Shown: piece by piece, positions 25,626 to 35,826 of the stretch
Position numbering within the stretch: the first letter of the stretch is position 1
Layout: each line of letters begins with the position of its first letter
Assembly: GCF_009914755.1 (NCBI RefSeq)
Contig: NC_060928.1
Direction: 5' to 3' (one strand)
Source: the human T2T-CHM13v2.0 reference genome, Homo sapiens
Length of the DNA: 64,000 bases
Position numbers and translations under genes: made by a program
The notes under the pieces: generated by a model
Told to the model about the DNA's origin: nothing
The model's input: the letters and a program-made list of their open reading frames with translations, nothing else
The model's database searches: none

Positions 25626-26511
25626 TGAGAGGTGAAGCTGGCTGGGCTTCTGGGTTGGGTGGGGACTTGGAGAAATTTTCTGTCTAGCTAAAGGATTGTA
25701 AATGTACCAATCAGCACTCTGTGTCTAGCTAAGGGTTTGTAAACACAACAATCAGCACTCTGTGTCTAGCTAATCGGGTACAGACTTGGAGAACTTTTCT
25801 GTCTAGCTAAAGGATGGTAAATGCACCAATCAGTGCTCTGTGTCTAGCTAAAGGTTTGTAAATGCACGAATCAGCACTCTGTAAAAATGGACCAATTAGC
25901 ACTCTGTAAAATGCACCAATCAGCAGGATGTGGGTGGGGCCAAATAAGAGAATAAAAGTTGGCCACCCAAGCCAACAGGGGCCACCCCCTCGGGTCCCCT
26001 TCCATGCTGTGGAAGCTTTGTTCTTTCACTCTTTGCAATAAATCTTGCTGCTGCTCACTCTTTGGGTCCGCACTACCTTTATGAGCTGTAACACTCACCG
26101 CAAAGGTCTGCAGGTTCACTTCTGAAGCCAGCAAGACCACAAACCCACTGGGAGGAACAAACAATTCTGGACATCCCACCTTTAAGAATTGTAACACTCA
26201 CTGTGAAGGTCTGTGGGTTCATTCCTGAAGTCAGCGAGACCACAAACCCACTGGGAAGAATGAACAACTCTGGAAACGCCACCTTTAAGAGCTGTAAAAC
26301 TCACTGTGAAGGTCTGTGGCTTCACTCCTGAAGTCAACAAGACCACGAACCCACCAGAAGGAAGAAACTCCAGACACATCTGAACATCTGAAGGAAAAAT
26401 CTCCAGACACACCGTCTTTAAGAACTTTAACACTCACCGTGAGTGTCTGAGGCTTCATTCTTGAAGTCAGCGAGACCAAGAACCCACCGGAAATAATGAA
26501 TTCCAGGCATA
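25626..26511 (+). promoter_or_regulatory. 5' LTR (LTR12 family, LTR12F-like)
   Basis: tgagaggtga start; CCAATCAG repeats, GGGTGGGG box, AATAAA TATA-like element (~25951), polyA signal 26037, four ~100-bp downstream repeats; terminal CA reads TA. Confidence 0.93.
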
Positions 26512-29142: not shown

Positions 29143-32100
29143 GGGTGCACAGGGCAATTGCCAGCTCATGTCATCACCCTCACTGAGCCCTGGGTATGTG
29201 TAACCATTGAAGGCCAGGAAATTGACTTCCTCCTGGACACGGTGTGGCCTTCTCAGTGTTAACCTCCTGTCCTTGATGACTGTACTTAAAGTCCATTACT
29301 ATCTGAGGAATCCTGGGACAGCCTGTAACCATGTATTTCTCCCACCTCCTCAGTTGTAATTGGGATACTTTGCTCTTTTCACATGCCTTTCTTTGTTATG
29401 CCTGAAAGTCCCACACCCTTGTTAGGGAGGAATAGATTAGCCAAAACTGGAGCTATTATCTACATGAATATGGGAAAAAAGTTACCCATTTATTGTCCCC
29501 TACTTGAGGAGGGAATCAACCCTGAAGTCTGGGCATTGGTAGGACAATTTGGAAGGGTAAAAAATGCCCACCCAGTCCAAATCAGGCTAAAAGACCCCAC
29601 CACTTTTCCTTATCAATGGCAATATCCCTTAAGGCCTGAAGCTCATAAAGGATTACAGGATATTGTTAAGCATTTAAAAACTCAAGGCTTAGTAAGGAAA
29701 TATAGCAGTCCCTTCAATACCCCAATTCTAGGGTACCAAAACCAAATGGTCAGTGGAGACTAGTGCAAGATCTTAGACTCATCAATGAGGCAGTAATTCC
29801 TCTATATCCAGTTGTACCCAACACCTATACCCTGATCTCTCAAATACCAGAGGAAGCAGAATGGTTCACTGTTCTGGACCTCAAGGGTGCCTTCTTCTAT
29901 ATTCCCCTGCACTCTGACTCCCAGTTTCTCTTTGCCTTTGAAGATCCCACAGACCACACATCCCAACTTATGTGGATGGTCTTGTCCCAAGGGTTTAGGG
30001 ATAACCCTCACCTGTTTGGTCAGGCACTGGCCCAAGATCTAGGCCACTTCTCAAGTCCAGGCACTCTGGTCCTTCAGAATGTGGATGATTTACTTTGGGC
30101 TACCAGTTCAGAAGCCTCATGTCAGCAAGCTACTCTATATCTGTTGAAATTTCTAGCTAATCAAGGGTACAAGGCATCTAGGTCAAAGGCCCAGCTTTGC
30201 CTACAGCAGGTCAAATATCTAGGCCTAATCTCAGCCAGAGGGACCAGGGCCCTCAGCAAGGAACACATACAGCCTATACTGGCCTATCCTTTTCCTAAGA
30301 CATTAAAACAGTTGTGGGCATTCCTTGGAATCACCGGCTTTTGCCAACTGTGGATCCCTGGATACAGTGAGATAGCCAGGCCCCTCTGTACTCTAATCAA
30401 GGAGACCTAGAGGGCAAATACTTACCTAGTAGAATGGGAACCAGAGGTAGGAACAGCATTCAAAACTTTAAAGCAGGCCCTAGTACAAGCTCCAGCTTTA
30501 AGCCTTCCCACAGGAGAAAACTTCTCCTTATACATCACAGAGAGAGCAGGAATAGCTCTTGGAGTTCTTACTCAGACTCATGGGACAAGCCCACAACCAG
30601 TGGAATACCTAAGTAAGGAAATTGATGTAGTAGCAAAAGGCTGGCCTCACTGTTTACAGGTAGTTGCAGCGGTGGCCTTGTTAGTGTCAGAGGCTATCAA
30701 AATAATACAAGGAAAGGATCTCACTGTCTGGGCTACTTGCGATGTAAATGGAATACTAGGTGCTAAAGGAAGCTTATGGCTATCAGACAGCTGCCTACTT
30801 AGATACCAGGCACTACTCCTTGAGGGACTGGTGCTTCAAATACTTATGTGAGTAGCCCTCAATCCTGCCACTCTTCTCCCAGAGGATGGGGAACCAATTG
30901 AGCATGACTGCCAATAAATTATAGTCCAGACTTATGCCACCTGAGATGATCTCTTAAAAGTCCCCTTAGCTAATCATGACCTTAACCTAAATAATGATGG
31001 AAGTTCATTTGTAGAGAATGGGATACGAAGGACAGGTTATCCCATAGTTACAGATGTAACTGTACTTGAAAGTAAGCCTCTTCCCCCAGAGGCCAGCACC
31101 CAGGTAGCAGAACTAGTGGCACTTACCCAAGCCTTAGAACTGGGGAAGGGAAAAAGAATAAATGTATATACAGATAGCATGTATGCTTATCTAACCTTAC
31201 ATGCCCATGCTACAATATGGAAAGAAATGGAGTTCCTAACCTCCAGGGGAACCCCCATTAAATACCACCTGGAAATTATAGAGTTATTGCATGCAGCGAA
31301 AAAACCCAAGGAGGTGGCAGTCTTATACTGCCAAAGCCATCAGCAAGGTGAAGGAGAAAAAGCAGATGGAAACCTTCAGGTAGAGGTTGAGGCGAAAATT
31401 GCTTCCAGGCAGAACCTCCCATTAGAAATACCTGGGGAAGGACCCTTGGTATGGAACAATGCCCTGCAAGAGATTTAGCCCCAGTATTCCCCGACTGAAA
31501 CAGAATGAGGACCTTAATGGTGGATAGGTTTCTCATCTCGGGGTGGTTAACAACATAAGATGGAAAGGTACTTATACCCAAAGCCAGCCAGTGGAAAATA
31601 CTTAAAACCCTCTACCAAACTTTTCATATGGGTATTGAAAACACTCAACAAATGGCCAAATGCCTATTTACAGGGTCAAATCTCCTCTGGACCATCCAAG
31701 AGGTAGTCAACACCTGTGAGGTGTGCCAAAGGAATAATCCCTTGGTTCATCATAAGGCCCCTTTGAGGGAACAAAGAATAGGTCATTATCCTGGAGAGGA
31801 CTGGCAGTTAGACTTCACCCATATACCTAAGTCAAAGGGATTTCAGTACTTGTTGGTCTGTGTTGATACCTTTACAAATTGGATAGAAACTTTTCCCTGC
31901 AAGACAGGGAAAGCTCAGGAAGTGATTAAAGTCCTAATTCATGAAATAATTCCTAGATTTGGGCTTCCCCAAAGCTTACAGAGTGACAGTGGTCCGACTT
32001 TTAAAGCCACGATAAATCAGGGAATTTCCAGGGTGCTAGGGATACAATATTACCTTCACTGCACCTGGAGGCCACAATCCTCGGGGAAGGTTGAGAAGAC

Positions 32101-32716
32101 AAATGAAACACTCAGGAGGCACTTAAGGAAACTAACACAAGAAACTCATCTCCTATGGCCTATTCCTTTGCCCATGGCCTTGTTGAGAATCCAAAAATCT
32201 CCTCACAAAATGGGGCTCAGTCCATATGAAATGCTTTATAGACGACCTTTTCTCACAAATGGCCTCCTACTTGATCAGGAAACAGCCAACTTGGTCAAAG
32301 ATATAACTTCTTTGGCAAAATATCAACAAAACCTTAAAAACCTACCTGAAGGATGTCACAGAGAAAAGGGAACAGAGTTGTTTCAACCAGGAGATCCAGT
32401 GTTGGTCAAATCTCTCCCCTCTATGTCCCTATCTATGGACCATTTGTGGGAAGGACCATACTTGGTAATCTTCTCTACCCTCACTACAGTTAAGGTGGCA
32501 GGAGTGGAACCTTGGATTCACCATACCAGAGTTAAATTTTGGACATCCCCCGAGGAACCTGCAGGACCGTCAGCTCAGGAGTCCCAAGATCAGCCAGACC
32601 AACCTCAATACACTTGAGAACGGTTGGAGGACTTACATCTCCTATTTCGGAAGGAAACATCCCAGACTAAAAAGGCTCCTACCACTGATCCTGAAGAAAA
32701 ACCCCTTCCTCCTTAA
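29143..32716 (+). pseudogene. pol: HERV9 pro-pol (PR, RT, RNase H, IN), disrupted
   Basis: FLLDT (DTG frameshifted); QDLR, DLKGAFF, NVDD (YVDD mutated); YTDS; IN WQLDFT, QSDSG, GKVEK and GPY; native stop ~32714-32716. Confidence 0.95.
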
Positions 32717-32774
32717 AAAAGATAAGTGAAAACCTACATAATCTTTATCTCTAACACCTCTCCTTGCCCCTTTA

Positions 32775-32936
32775 ATGGAATCGTTTTACTATTTCATCAT
32801 ATTATTAAGCAGCATACTAACCATACTCTTTGCAATAGGGCTATACACTGTAGCTCCTGCTGGGACAAAAATCCTAATCACATCAACCTTCTTTTTGTCT
32901 TCCTTCCTTCTGACAGCAATTTACTCCTACCTTTAA
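32775..32936 (+). CDS. Hypothetical 53-aa two-TM microprotein in the pol-env spacer
   Basis: Manual translation ATG to TAA: MESFYYFIILLSSILTILFAIGLYTVAPAGTKILITSTFFLSSFLLTAIYSYL. No expression evidence. Confidence 0.35.
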   Translation: MESFYYFIILLSSILTILFAIGLYTVAPAGTKILITSTFFLSSFLLTAIYSYL

Positions 32937-32951
32937 CTCAGCCTGGATAAG

Positions 32952-34804
32952 ATGATCATATCTTCCAAAGCACCCTCTTTACCTTCCTATTTATTCTTTG
33001 CCTATCTATCTCTCCTGCTTCCTTGGATACTCCATACAATCACCCCTCCCTTTCCACTAGCTCCTAATTACCTCTACATGACTCTCAACTTAACCCACTC
33101 TCTGTTAAACCAGTCCAATCCTTCCTTGGCAACTGACTGTTGTCTTTTTATCTCTCTATCAACCTTTGCTTATGTTGCCACTCCCATTCCCACAAAAAAC
33201 TGGGTCTTTACCAACGTAACCTACCACCCTCATTATGAAGGAAAAGACCTTTTCTGACTTCTAAATATGCAATAATTAGCTGACTTCTCCATCTCTGATA
33301 GGAGGAAGAATACCCTAACAGGATGTGCAATCCAACTTTTACGTTCCTACATTTCCAACCTCACCTATTACACAAGCAATGAAAAGCCCAGCATGGCCCT
33401 GTAACTACAAATACCATCTTAACTTTCCAAGCCCCGTTATGCATCCAATGCAACCTGTTATCAGGCCTGCCCCTGGGGCGCCTACTACTCCATCAGTGTA
33501 ATTACACCCTACAACTTCAAGCCCCAGCTGATCATAGTAACTTCCAGGTCACCCAAACAGCTCCATTCAGATGGCCTGTCTGCTTCTCAGGGCCCCCCAA
33601 AATTATCACCTCCTCCATGCTTAACAAACAGTCCAGGTTTTTAATGGCAAGCATACTCCCTGCATGAACATTCACCCCTGGACTCCCTATTGCAGTGCCC
33701 CCACCACTAGTGAATGCCTTCTCATCCCCTCTTTCAATCACTCTCTTGAATTGTTCCTAGTAGATACAAAATGGTTCTTTTGTCCAATGGGAAAATAGAA
33801 CACAGGGAACCACTCAGTTTGGTCCCAACACCCCTCTCCAGCCACTTACTGGAGCTACCTTGGCAAGTACTCTAGGAGTATGGAAAAATGAAAACAACAA
33901 ACTCACACACCTTTTTAACATACACAACTAGTTCTGTCTACCCAGCCAAAATATATTCTTCTTATGTGGAACATCGACATATATCTGCCTCCTCACTAAC
34001 TGAACAGGCACCTGCACCTTAGTCTTTCTAAGTCCCAACATTAACATTGCCACAGAAAATCAGACCCTATCAGTACCCGTCAAAGCTCAAGTCCATCAGC
34101 ATAGCCATACAACTAATACCCCTACTTATAGAGTTAGGAATGGCTACTGCTACAGGAAATGGAATGGCCAGTTTATCTACTTCATTATCCTACTACCACA
34201 CACTCTCAAAGGATTTCTCAGACAGTTTGCAAGAAATAAGGAAATCTATCTTACTCTACAATCCCAAATAGACTCTTTGGCAGCAGTGACTCTCCAAAAC
34301 CACCAAGGCCTCCTCACTGCTGACAAAGGAGGACTCTGCACCTTCTTAGGGGAAGAGTGTTGTTTTTACACTAACCATTCAGGGATAGTATGAGATGCTG
34401 TCTGGCGTTTACAGGAAAAGTCTTCTGAAATCAGACATGCTGCCTAGCATTTACAGGAAAAGTCTTCTGAAATCAGACAATGACTTTCAAATTCTTATAC
34501 CAACCTTTGGAGTTGGCCAACATGGCTTCTCCCTTTTCTAGGTCCCGTGGCAGCCATCTTGCTATGACTTGCCTTTGGGCCTTGTATTTTTAACCTACTT
34601 GTCAAATTTGTTTCCTCCAGGATCAAGGCCATCAAGCTACAGATGGTCTTACAAATGGAACCCCAAATGAGTTCAACTAACAAATTCTACTGAGGACCCC
34701 TGGACCCACCTGCTGGTCCTTCCACTGGCCTAAAGAGTTCTCCTCTGGAGGACACTACAACTGCAGGGCCCCTTCTTCACCCCTATCCAGCAGGAAGTAG
34801 CTAG
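32952..34804 (+). pseudogene. env: HERV9 env (disrupted)
   Basis: Signal peptide, LNLTHSLLNQSNPSLA, fusion peptide [27 protein letters not shown]6CC (CTFLGEECC), TM LPFLGP...FGPCIFNLLV, C-terminus PAGSS*; multiple stops and frameshifts. Confidence 0.93.
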
Positions 34805-34861: not shown

Positions 34862-35826
34862 TGAGAAGTGATGCAGGCTGGGCTTCTGGGTCAGGTGGGG
34901 ATTTGGAGAACTTTTCTGTCTAGCTGAAGGATTGTAAATGCACCAATCAGCACTCTGTGTCTAGCTAAAGTTTTGTAAACACACCAATCAGCACTCCGTA
35001 AAAATGGACCAATCAGCACTCTGTGTCTAGCTAAAGGTTTGTAAAAGCACCAATCAGCACTCTGTAAAAATGGACCAATCAGCTCAGCACTCTGTAAAAT
35101 GGACCAATCAGCTCTCTGTAAAGTGGACCAATCAGCAAGATGTGGGTGGGGCCAAATAAGGGAATAAAAGCTGGCCACCTGAGCCAGCAGCAGCAACCTG
35201 CTCGGGTCGCCTTCCATGCTGTGGAAGCTTTGTTCTTTCGCTCTTTGCAATAAATCTTGCTGCTACTCACTCTTTGGGTCTGCACTACCTTTATGAGCTG
35301 TAACACTCACCATGAAGGTCTACAGCTTCCCTCCTGAAGCCAGTGAGACTACAAACTCACTGGGAGGAACAAACAACTCTGGACATGCCACCTTTAAGAG
35401 CTGTAACACTCACTGCAAAGGTCTGTGGCTTCATTCCTGAAGTCAGAAAGACCACAAACCCACTGGGAGGAAAAAACAACTCCAGATGCACCACCTTTAA
35501 GAGCTGTAACACTCACTGTGAAGGTCTGCAGCTTCACTCCTGAAGTCAGTGAGATCAAGAACCCACCGGGAGGAATGAACAACTCTGGACGCGCCACATT
35601 TAAGAGCTGTAACGCTCACTGTGAAGGTCTGCAACTTCACTCCTGAAGTCAGGAAGACCAAGAACCCACCAGAAGGAAGAAACTCCAGACACATCTGAAC
35701 ATCTGAAGGAACAAACTTTGGACACATCATCTTTAAGAACTGTAACACTCACCGCGAGGGTCCGCAGCTTCATTCTTGAAGTCAGCAAGACCAAGAACCC
35801 ACCAGAAGGAATGAATTCTGGACACA
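34862..35826 (+). promoter_or_regulatory. 3' LTR (LTR12 family)
   Basis: tgagaagtga...ggacaca; seven CCAATCAG motifs, polyA signal 35249, five ~100-bp repeats. Confidence 0.95.

What the first reader, a model, noticed from the sequence alone, without database searches (positions are those of the whole stretch)
32775..32936. Intact two-TM microprotein ORF between ERV9 pol and env: candidate Vpu/viroporin-like accessory gene
Seen: pol ends at ~32716 and env starts at 32952. Most of that ~235-nt spacer is one open ATG-TAA frame of 53 codons: MES-FYYFIILLSSILTILFAIGLY-TVAPAGTK-ILITSTFFLSSFLLTAIYSYL. This gives two ~21-aa hydrophobic segments joined by a short Pro/Gly/Lys turn. It stops 15 nt before the env ATG. 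Its ATG context is weak (tttaATGg, -3 T) while env's has -3 A. Gag, pol and env here are all broken. Known: HIV-1 vpu occupies this position and shares the env mRNA by leaky scanning; the related HERV-W has almost no pol-env gap; gamma-like ERVs are usually regarded as lacking accessory genes. Inference: ERV9 may have encoded a helical-hairpin membrane microprotein. I know of no description of it but cannot search. Caveat: 53 codons can stay open by chance, and T/C-rich DNA encodes hydrophobic residues.
Basis: partly seen in the sequence, partly recalled or inferred. Interest (0 to 1): 0.85.

Follow-up and report, generated by a model that had tools for sequence, protein, structure and literature searches.

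The report
Conserved small membrane gene before env
The 53-codon frame between pol and env of this ERV9 provirus looks like a real, ancient retroviral gene for a tiny two-helix membrane protein, and HERV-H and other old human retrovirus families, usually regarded as having no extra genes, carry it too.

Summary
In one copy it is not beyond chance: 7.7% of shuffles of the pol-env gap give an ORF this long. Comparison with other copies makes the case. In 40 ERV9 copies the ATG is kept in 37, the TAA in 38, and the whole ORF in 21. Variants shared by 3 or more copies are mostly synonymous in this frame only (N:S 11:17 against 91:25 for singletons, p 1e-4). That constraint is at least as strong as in integrase; the neighbouring spacer shows none.

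A homologous 53-68-codon ORF sits between pol and env in HERV-H and at least three other gamma-like lineages. It keeps a conserved core, a basic loop, a weak start context, and a stop 0-15 nt before the env or leader ATG. AlphaFold predicts a helical hairpin. No Pfam family, structural match or paper was found.

Best reading: a small membrane accessory protein that belongs to the env module. Untested: viroporin activity, oligomerisation, and which mRNA carries it. Two good candidate splice acceptors lie downstream of its ATG. The within-family selection test was null in HERV-H and in a third lineage.

The parts
25884..26477 (+). Part of the 5' LTR (LTR12-type) with 103-nt tandem units
   Evidence: direct repeats pair 25884-26183 with 35096-35395 (89%), 9212 nt apart; tandem spacing 103 nt. 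LTR ends were not mapped.
31628..32617 (+). Integrase part of pol, open in this copy (329 codons), ended by a stop private to a few copies
   Evidence: ORF; the stop at 32615-32617 is in 3 of 40 copies; 35-79% identity to integrase regions of other ERV lineages. Used as positive control.
32618..32715 (+). Rest of the ancestral pol frame, up to its stop at 32713-32715
   Evidence: translation of the pol frame past the private stop.
32716..32774 (+). 59-nt spacer between the pol stop and the ORF start, pyrimidine-rich at its 3' end
   Evidence: In the ORF's frame a TGA at 32727 is kept in 38/40 copies, so the ORF is not a continuation of pol. The stretch 32618-32774 shows no coding-type substitution bias in any frame.
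32775..32936 (+). The small ORF: 53 codons plus TAA
   Evidence: Retention in 40 copies. Shared-variant N:S 11:17 against singletons 91:25, p 1.2e-4, in this frame only. Homologues in other lineages.
32778..32852 (+). Predicted helix 1 (residues 2-26), carrying the conserved core (residues 15-28)
   Evidence: AlphaFold2: H2-26, mean pLDDT 81.5; nearly invariant columns L15, T16, L18, F19, A20, L23, V26, P28; hydropathy; shared N:S 7:10.
32853..32867 (+). Short loop (residues 27-31), followed by a Lys at residue 32
   Evidence: All 7 representative copies of the lineages have Lys/Arg in or next to the loop.
32868..32933 (+). Predicted helix 2 (residues 32-52); in ERV9 it is encoded by a pyrimidine tract
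   Evidence: H32-52; shared N:S 0:4, singletons 42:15.
32886..32916 (+). Candidate 3' splice site inside the ORF: long pyrimidine tract followed by CAG
   Evidence: crude scan of my own; the AG at 32915-32916 is kept in 38/40 copies. Use as a splice site is not shown.
32922..32941 (+). Second candidate 3' splice site, 10 nt before the env ATG
   Evidence: AG kept in 37/40 ERV9 copies. The homologous AG is kept in 34/40 HERV-H copies. Use is not shown.
32937..32951 (+). 15-nt gap between the ORF stop and the env start
   Evidence: Length kept in 39/40 copies.
32952..33257 (+). Start of env: signal peptide and the CXXC region near the N-terminus; open for 101 codons here
   Evidence: 44-54% identity to the env N-termini of L057-L059. 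L057's env is 92% identical to a protein named 'HERV-H_2q24.1 provirus ancestral Env polyprotein'. ATG kept in 35/40 copies.
35096..35689 (+). Part of the 3' LTR

Best explanation
The ORF is a genuine retroviral gene. It is a third cistron between pol and env that encoded a protein of about 53-68 residues made of two transmembrane helices joined by a short basic loop.

It is old and belongs to the env module. It occurs with HERV-H-type envelopes (CXXC motif close to the N-terminus) in ERV9, HERV-H and at least three further gamma-like lineages. Its similarity follows env, not integrase.

Inferred, not shown: it was made from a subgenomic mRNA together with Env. Ribosomes would either pass its weak start codon by leaky scanning or restart at the env or leader ATG that follows its stop within 0-15 nt. 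Also inferred: it acted in the membranes of the secretory pathway, on Env maturation or particle release or on a host membrane protein, in the manner of small viral hairpin proteins. Ion-channel (viroporin) activity is one possibility among these and is the least supported step.

The copy in this window is one of the intact relics. Nothing suggests a host function for it.
For: (1) Ancestral to ERV9. All 40 scored matches of 80 first-look candidates were used. ATG is kept in 37/40, TAA in 38/40, whole ORF in 21/40, and length is unchanged in 30/40.

(2) Coding-type constraint in ERV9.
- Variants shared by 3 or more copies have N:S 11:17 against singletons 91:25 (OR 0.18, p 1.2e-4).
- With 5 or more copies: 6:8, p 0.0076. 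A different alignment gave the same result.
- The shifted frames give 16:9 and 23:4.
- Without CpG sites: 10:12 against 85:20, p 0.002.
- Helix 2 has 0 N and 4 S shared variants.
- Controls: integrase frame OR 0.31, p 1.7e-5 (5 or more copies); spacer OR about 1 in all frames.

(3) Homologues at the same place. Of 20 weak six-frame hits fetched, 15 have an integrase match 5' of the ORF (one of them weak) and 7 have an env match 3' of it, always in the order pol-ORF-env.
- First-look candidates in this genome: 182 (ERV9 query), 339 (L051-type query), 991 (HERV-H query).
- L057-type is HERV-H.

(4) Between lineages, over the ungapped codons 2-29:
- Second positions differ least and third positions most (for example 0.34 against 0.68).
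- pN/pS is 0.52-0.58 in frame, against 0.44-1.05 and 1.04-1.81 in the shifted frames. The in-frame value is lowest in 5 of 6 comparisons.

(5) Shared architecture.
- Hairpin predicted for ERV9 (H2-26, H32-52, pLDDT 81.5) and for HERV-H (H4-26, H38-55, pLDDT 69.5).
- Lys/Arg at the loop in 7/7 representative copies; acidic residue 2 in 6/7.

(6) Compact gene order.
- pol stop 5 nt (HERV-H) or 59 nt (ERV9) before the ATG.
- ORF stop 0 nt (HERV-H), 2 nt (L051-type), 13 nt (L053, L042) or 15 nt (ERV9) before the next ATG.
- Pyrimidine at -3 in 9/9 representative copies, in 40/40 ERV9 copies and in 39/40 HERV-H copies.

(7) ORF identity to ERV9 follows env, not integrase. L059: IN 36%, ORF 58%, env 54%. 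L043: IN 57%, ORF 50%. This fits the published remarks that HERV9 Env clusters with HERV-H/F Envs and that HERV9 has a short HERVIP-like piece at the pol end and env start (PMC4724089, passages).

(8) No RNA family and no unusual RNA fold (z 0.18) offers a non-coding reason for the conservation.
Against: - The single ORF is within chance (7.7% of shuffles).
- The within-family test is null outside ERV9. HERV-H: OR 0.48, p 0.15 with 40 copies; OR 0.84 with 52 copies; OR 1.25 with the 20 old-type copies. The pol-tail control was null there too, so the test may lack power. L051-type: OR 0.56, p 0.11, and the shifted frames look the same.
- A large HERV-H subfamily amplified with the ORF broken by a shared stop and frameshift. 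The gene was therefore dispensable for that amplification.
- The between-lineage pairs are not independent, pS is near saturation, only intact copies were used, and one of six comparisons favours a shifted frame.
- In ERV9, helix 2 coincides with a textbook pyrimidine tract plus CAG (ending 32916), and a second candidate acceptor ends at 32941. Both are conserved. If env mRNA is spliced there, the ORF's ATG is not on it.
- Nine of 40 ERV9 copies, and the L051 copy, have out-of-frame ATGs between the two starts. That is awkward for pure leaky scanning.
- No evidence of RNA, ribosome occupancy or peptide was available. No homology to any characterised protein was found.
Confidence: 0.65

Rival explanations
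1. A translated upstream ORF whose real job is regulatory. It would set how much Env is made, by leaky scanning or termination-reinitiation, and perhaps bring the mRNA to the ER through its hydrophobic nascent chain. The peptide would have no function of its own.
For: - Stop 0-15 nt before the env or leader ATG in five lineages.
- Weak start context throughout.
- The ORF follows env in recombination.
- It was dispensable in the env-less HERV-H expansion.
Against: Regulatory uORFs are as a rule constrained in position and length, not in peptide sequence (general knowledge). Here substitutions are constrained at the amino-acid level. A core of about 14 residues and the hairpin layout are kept between lineages whose DNA differs at 30-70% of sites. 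A 53-68-codon uORF is long for efficient reinitiation (general knowledge).
Confidence: 0.15
2. No gene at all. The frame would be open by chance in T/C-rich DNA that is conserved for env splicing (branch point, pyrimidine tract, acceptor), and hydrophobic codons would be a by-product.
For: - Chance alone gives such an ORF in 7.7% of shuffles.
- There are strong candidate acceptors at 32916 and 32941.
- Within-family tests are null in HERV-H and in the L051-type.
Against: - The three-base periodicity of shared variants appears in one frame only.
- Shared changes in the tract include purine changes at third positions, and no amino-acid change is shared in helix 2.
- In the other lineages helix 2 is not a pyrimidine tract, yet the ORF, its length class and its stop position persist.
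- ATG and stop are kept in 31-37 and 34-38 of 36-40 copies in three lineages.
Confidence: 0.1
3. A remnant of a long N-terminal leader of Env. It would once have been one reading frame with Env, as in foamy-virus or MMTV leader peptides (recalled), later cut off by a stop or still joined by readthrough.
For: - In ERV9 the ORF and env share a frame.
- In HERV-H the stop abuts an in-frame ATG.
- Related envelopes do have a long Cys-rich leader (L053).
- Occasional copies or database proteins read through, for example P0129 and P0133.
Against: - The stop is present in 38/40 ERV9, 36/40 HERV-H and 34/36 L051-type copies.
- The ORF is in a different frame from the env or leader start in L051, L053 and L042, and from the HERV-H env ATG, so no common readthrough scheme exists.
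- The constraint in ERV9 acted while the stop was already there.
Confidence: 0.07

Closest known systems
HIV-1 Vpu (recalled from general knowledge)
   Same: A small membrane protein encoded immediately 5' of env. Vpu has a weak start codon and shares a bicistronic mRNA with env by leaky scanning. Here the position and the weak context (pyrimidine at -3 in 40/40 ERV9 copies) match.
   Different: Vpu has one transmembrane helix plus a cytoplasmic domain with a phospho-degron. This ORF has two helices and no soluble domain. There is no sequence similarity. The shared mRNA is not shown here.
Hairpin viroporins: HCV p7, alphavirus 6K (recalled)
   Same: About 55-65 residues: two transmembrane helices joined by a short basic loop, encoded next to the envelope glycoproteins. 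Size, hairpin and basic loop match.
   Different: p7 and 6K are cut out of polyproteins, whereas this ORF has its own start and stop. No sequence or significant fold match was found. Oligomerisation and channel activity are untested.
Small hydrophobic accessory or oncoproteins of other viruses: HTLV-1 p12/p8, papillomavirus E5, pneumovirus SH (recalled)
   Same: Short, largely transmembrane viral proteins that act by binding host membrane proteins rather than as enzymes. This is an alternative way the ORF could work.
   Different: Unrelated in sequence and genome position. Nothing here was tested for partners.
Extra ORFs already proposed in gamma-like ERVs: the 'pre-gag' ORF of HERV-T (PMC5388530, passages) and of HERV-H (recalled abstract; paper not held)
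   Same: They show that 'simple' class I ERVs can carry additional conserved frames.
   Different: Those lie 5' of gag and are Pro/Ser-rich extensions. This one lies between pol and env and is a membrane hairpin.
Termination-reinitiation gene pairs (influenza B M1/BM2, calicivirus VP1/VP2; recalled)
   Same: The stop of the upstream cistron abuts or nearly abuts the next ATG (0, 2, 13, 15 nt here).
   Different: Those systems need defined upstream RNA motifs that bind 18S rRNA. None was sought or found here.

Membership tests
Viroporin (small viral channel-forming membrane protein) | Small virus-encoded protein with one to three transmembrane helices | tested here: met
   53 aa. AlphaFold2 gives two helices, 2-26 and 32-52, with pLDDT 81.5; the HERV-H form has the same layout. 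Hydropathy maxima over 15 residues are 1.9-3.3 in 7 copies.
Viroporin (small viral channel-forming membrane protein) | Homo-oligomerisation into a pore | not tested
   The four-copy complex job never entered the queue.
Viroporin (small viral channel-forming membrane protein) | Membrane permeabilisation or ion conductance | not testable with these tools
   Needs expression and electrophysiology or permeability assays.
Viroporin (small viral channel-forming membrane protein) | Basic residues flanking the helices (hairpin class) | tested here: met
   Lys/Arg at the loop in 7/7 representative copies.
HIV-1 Vpu family | Sequence homology (Pfam Vpu) | tested here: not met
   No Pfam family at E up to 10 other than chance-level rows.
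HIV-1 Vpu family | Single N-terminal transmembrane helix plus cytoplasmic helices with a phospho-degron (recalled definition) | tested here: not met
   Two helices fill the whole protein; there is no soluble domain.
HIV-1 Vpu family | Encoded just 5' of env and translated from the env mRNA by leaky scanning | tested here: inconclusive
   Position and weak start context are met. The mRNA structure is unknown, and candidate acceptors lie downstream of the ATG.
Env signal or leader peptide | One continuous reading frame with SU | tested here: not met
   Stop in 38/40, 36/40 and 34/36 copies of three lineages. The frame differs from env in L051, L053, L042 and HERV-H.
Purely regulatory uORF | Peptide sequence free to vary | tested here: not met
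   Shared-variant N:S 11:17 against 91:25 in frame only. The core is conserved between lineages.
C-terminal extension of pol | Same frame as integrase with no stop between | tested here: not met
   pol stops at 32713-32715 in another frame. A TGA at 32727 in the ORF's frame is in 38/40 copies. HERV-H has a double stop 5 nt before the ATG in 38/40 and 37/40 copies.

The most novel reading that the evidence does not exclude
A whole clade of 'simple' gamma-like retroviruses that colonised primate genomes (HERV-H, ERV9 and relatives) were in fact complex retroviruses. They would have carried a conserved hairpin viroporin-type accessory gene that is physically and translationally coupled to env (stop-start spacing 0-15 nt) and that moved between lineages together with env by recombination. 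Dozens of intact copies would still sit in the human genome, where LTR7- or LTR12-driven transcription could express them.
Probability: 0.3. Interest if true: 0.9.

Novelty: new variant of a known kind. Interest (0 to 1): 0.8.

Why it matters
As generally taught, gamma-like (class I) endogenous retroviruses encode gag, pro, pol and env only. A conserved extra cistron for a membrane hairpin next to env would have four consequences.
- It would change the gene map of HERV-H, ERV9 and their relatives.
- It would give a new protein family to test for channel activity, Env-chaperone function or host-factor antagonism.
- It would give a marker for env-module recombination between ERV lineages.
- It would add a set of still-open small ORFs to the list of possible HERV products in stem cells and in tumours treated with epigenetic drugs.

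The claim can be tested with ordinary experiments on natural copies.

Tried and rejected
- **Env with a deleted receptor-binding domain.** My first idea was that the ORF was the old env 5' end. I rejected it: the CXXC motif near the N-terminus is normal for HERV-H-type envelopes.
- **Internal duplication of the signal-peptide region.** Only short, weak direct repeats were found.
- **Readthrough fusion with Env.** The frame relation is not conserved.
- **Pfam**, **Foldseek against BFVD and PDB** and **IMG/VR**: nothing significant.
- **Protein databases.** 112 short unnamed proteins and 47 cluster representatives at E up to 1e-3 among 1.84 billion. No names, so no functional lead. Some members are divergent (P0145, P0150, P0154).
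- **Naming the non-HERV-H lineages.** The env of L053 found no named relative. A hit I guessed might be the ERV3-1 locus was not; it has no env downstream.
- **RNA explanations.** Rfam gave only a chance-level row, and the fold z-score is 0.18.
- **Within-family selection tests** in HERV-H and in the L051-type: null.
- **Homo-tetramer prediction.** The queue was full at every try, so no result.
- **Literature.** Ten full-text searches found no description of this ORF, including searches for four core peptide motifs (0 papers). The three papers most likely to mention it are not held: the HERV-H in-silico consensus study, the HERV-H env splicing study and the first ERV9 description. No supplements were opened. 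Repbase and Dfam annotation could not be seen. 'Not described' therefore holds only for the open library searched.

Full report
**The observation**

The ORF is exactly as described. ATG is at 32775, TAA at 32934-32936, with 53 codons and the quoted peptide. The env-type ORF begins at 32952, 15 nt later and in the same frame.

In this copy the integrase frame stops at 32615-32617, but only 3 of 40 copies have that stop. The frame otherwise runs to a stop at 32713-32715.

On its own the ORF is not remarkable. 1544 of 20000 shuffles of the 334-nt pol-env gap contain an ATG-to-stop frame of 53 or more codons.

**ERV9 copies**

The window lies in a human assembly that could be searched. A DNA search with 32640-33060 scored 40 matches out of 80 first-look candidates, at 84-100% identity. 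I used all 40. Counts:

| Feature | Copies (of 40) |
|---|---|
| ATG kept | 37 |
| TAA kept | 38 |
| Whole ORF intact | 21 |
| Length unchanged | 30 |
| 15-nt gap to env kept | 39 |
| env ATG kept | 35 |
| Pyrimidine at -3 of the ORF start | 40 |
| G at +4 of the ORF start | 40 |
| Purine at -3 of the env start | 40 |
| TGA at 32727, in the ORF's frame | 38 |

The TGA at 32727 separates the ORF from anything upstream. The frame, with its own stop, is therefore an ancestral feature of ERV9 and not an accident of this copy.

**Selection while ERV9 was active**

The rules bar a consensus or ancestral sequences. I therefore compared variants shared by several copies with private ones, each classed as synonymous or not against the real window copy. 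Shared variants mostly arose in replicating lineages; private ones mostly arose by decay after insertion.

- In the ORF's frame, shared variants (3 or more copies) have N:S 11:17 against 91:25 for singletons (OR 0.18, p 1.2e-4).
- With 5 or more copies the figures are 6:8 (p 0.0076). A MAFFT alignment gave the same result.
- The other two frames give 16:9 and 23:4.
- Leaving out CpG sites gives 10:12 against 85:20 (p 0.002).
- By segment, shared N:S is 7:10 in helix 1, 3:3 in the loop and 0:4 in helix 2.
- Controls in the same pile-up: integrase frame OR 0.31 (p 1.7e-5, 5 or more copies); env start OR 0.45 (p 0.068); the stretch 32618-32774 about 1 in all frames.

I ran about 24 such tests in this comparison. 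The main p-value survives a Bonferroni correction (about 0.003).

**Other lineages**

A six-frame search with the peptide gave 149 matches from 150 scored candidates out of 182. Many of them were weak, at 40-60% identity.

I fetched 20 of the weak ones. Fifteen have an integrase match 5' of the hit (one of these weak). Seven have an env N-terminal match 3' of it. The order is always pol-ORF-env. Five show the ORF only.

Translations show ORFs of 56-68 codons starting M-E or M-S. They have a conserved core, nearly invariant at L15, T16, L18, F19, A20, L23, V26 and P28, then a basic loop and a second hydrophobic stretch. Searches with two of them found 339 and 991 first-look candidates, 150 scored each.

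The 991-candidate type is HERV-H. Its env start is 92% identical to a protein named HERV-H_2q24.1 Env. By my hand count, 44 of the best 59 rows are near-full-length matches without a stop. The other lineages could not be named.

**Between-lineage pattern**

I used the ungapped codons 2-29 of intact real copies: 21 ERV9, 13 HERV-H, 5 L051-type and 6 others.

- Second codon positions differ least and third positions most. ERV9 against HERV-H gives 0.53, 0.34 and 0.68 for positions 1, 2 and 3.
- pN/pS is 0.52-0.58 in frame, against 0.44-1.05 and 1.04-1.81 in the shifted frames. The in-frame value is lowest in 5 of 6 comparisons. Protein-guided full-length alignments agree.
- Caveats: the pairs are not independent, pS is near saturation, and only intact copies were used.

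**Results against the reading**

- The shared-versus-private test is null in HERV-H: OR 0.48, p 0.15 with 40 DNA-selected copies; 0.84 with 52 copies; 1.25 with the 20 old-type copies. The pol-tail control is null there too, so the test either lacks power or HERV-H amplified under relaxed constraint.
- It is null in the older L051-type lineage as well: OR 0.56, p 0.11, with the shifted frames alike; 5 of 36 copies are intact.
- 27 of the 52 HERV-H copies fall in a group whose members mostly share a stop and a frameshift in the loop. The ORF was therefore dispensable for that expansion.
- In a few copies a second length change restores the downstream frame. This is suggestive but could be chance.

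**Gene layout**

| Lineage | pol stop to ORF ATG | ORF stop to next ATG |
|---|---|---|
| ERV9 | 59 nt | 15 nt (env) |
| HERV-H | 5 nt (double stop in 38/40 and 37/40 copies) | 0 nt (stop in 36/40; ATG in 40/40) |
| L051-type | not determined | 2 nt (spacing kept in 32/32 copies that reach it; ATG in 25/32) |
| L053, L042 (single copies) | not determined | 13 nt |

All nine representative copies have a pyrimidine at -3. The frame relation to env is not conserved, which argues against a readthrough fusion. Identity of the ORF to ERV9's follows env rather than integrase. This fits the published remarks that HERV9 Env clusters with HERV-H/F envelopes and that HERV9 has a short HERVIP-like piece at the pol end and env start (PMC4724089, passages).

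**Structure and homology**

- AlphaFold2 predicts a helical hairpin for the ERV9 form (helices 2-26 and 32-52, mean pLDDT 81.5) and for the HERV-H form (helices 4-26 and 38-55, pLDDT 69.5).
- All seven representative copies have Lys/Arg at the loop; six have an acidic second residue.
- There is no Pfam family, no significant Foldseek match in BFVD or PDB and nothing in IMG/VR.
- The large protein libraries hold only short unnamed relatives: 112 proteins and 47 cluster representatives.
- There is no Rfam match and no unusual RNA fold.

**Expression: the open point**

A crude scan finds two good candidate 3' splice sites downstream of the ORF's ATG.

- One is a long pyrimidine tract plus CAG ending at 32916, inside helix 2.
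- The other ends at 32941. HERV-H has a counterpart 10 nt before its env ATG.
- Their AGs are kept in 38/40, 37/40 and 34/40 copies.
- Upstream candidates exist in HERV-H, where the AG is kept in 40/40 copies, and in L051. They are weaker in ERV9.

Without RNA data I cannot say which mRNA carries the ORF. The one review passage found on HERV-H splicing gives no positions (PMC9631305), and the primary paper is not held.

**Interpretation**

Most likely (0.65) this is a real third cistron for a small two-helix membrane protein that belongs to the env module of a clade of gamma-like retroviruses.

- Shown: its ancestry, its constraint in ERV9, its homologues, their synteny and the hairpin prediction.
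- Inferred: co-expression with Env by leaky scanning or reinitiation, and action in secretory-pathway membranes.
- Channel activity is only one option.
- It works most like hairpin viroporins (HCV p7, alphavirus 6K) in form and like Vpu in position. It is a member of neither family: there is no homology, and its architecture differs from Vpu's.

Rivals:
- a purely regulatory uORF (0.15);
- a by-product of splice signals (0.10);
- a cut-off Env leader (0.07).

**Novelty**

Ten full-text searches, including four core peptide motifs, found no description. Extra ORFs reported for related ERVs lie 5' of gag (PMC5388530, passages). Key older papers and the Repbase and Dfam annotation could not be read. 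The claim of novelty is therefore limited to the open library searched.

Noticed in passing
L057 1663-1947 (+); L053 777-1469 (-); window 32937-32960: Right after the small ORF, HERV-H has a 94-codon ORF whose ATG abuts the small ORF's stop and which overlaps the env ATG in another frame. Its Cys-rich product is homologous to a long N-terminal leader that in L053 runs in frame into SU (230 codons open). ERV9 lacks roughly the first 30 codons of this leader. It could be a second unrecognised product or an unusual long Env leader.
   Followed up: partly
L057-L098, L129-L140 (HERV-H copies), loop of the small ORF: 27 of 52 HERV-H copies belong to a group whose members mostly share an in-frame stop and a one-base frameshift in the loop. 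In three young, closely similar copies, and separately in three others, a second length change upstream puts the downstream helix back in frame. The loop is re-coded while both helices are kept. This may be chance or selection for the hairpin.
   Followed up: partly
window 32615-32617: The stop that ends the integrase ORF in this copy is private to 3 of 40 ERV9 copies. The family's pol frame runs about 100 nt further.
   Followed up: yes
L041-L060: Similarity of the small ORF to ERV9's follows env similarity, not integrase similarity. This suggests that ERV9 acquired ORF and env together by recombination with a breakpoint between the pol end and the ORF. It agrees with published remarks on HERV9 mosaicism (PMC4724089, passages).
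   Followed up: partly
window 25972-26477 and 35184-35689: Both LTRs hold three or more 103-nt tandem units. These also produce the repeated minus-strand ORFs seen. The LTR pair is about 85-89% identical over ungapped 300-nt stretches.
   Followed up: no
G000:C23 139.33-140.0 Mb: Five near-identical copies of the L051-type pol-env junction, on both strands. They look like a segmental duplication of a provirus-bearing block on the X chromosome.
   Followed up: no
P0150, P0154, P0145: Divergent database members of the ORF family from unnamed records. In P0150 the hairpin runs on into what looks like an Env membrane anchor and tail, as expected of an env-deleted element from a more distant lineage.
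   Followed up: no
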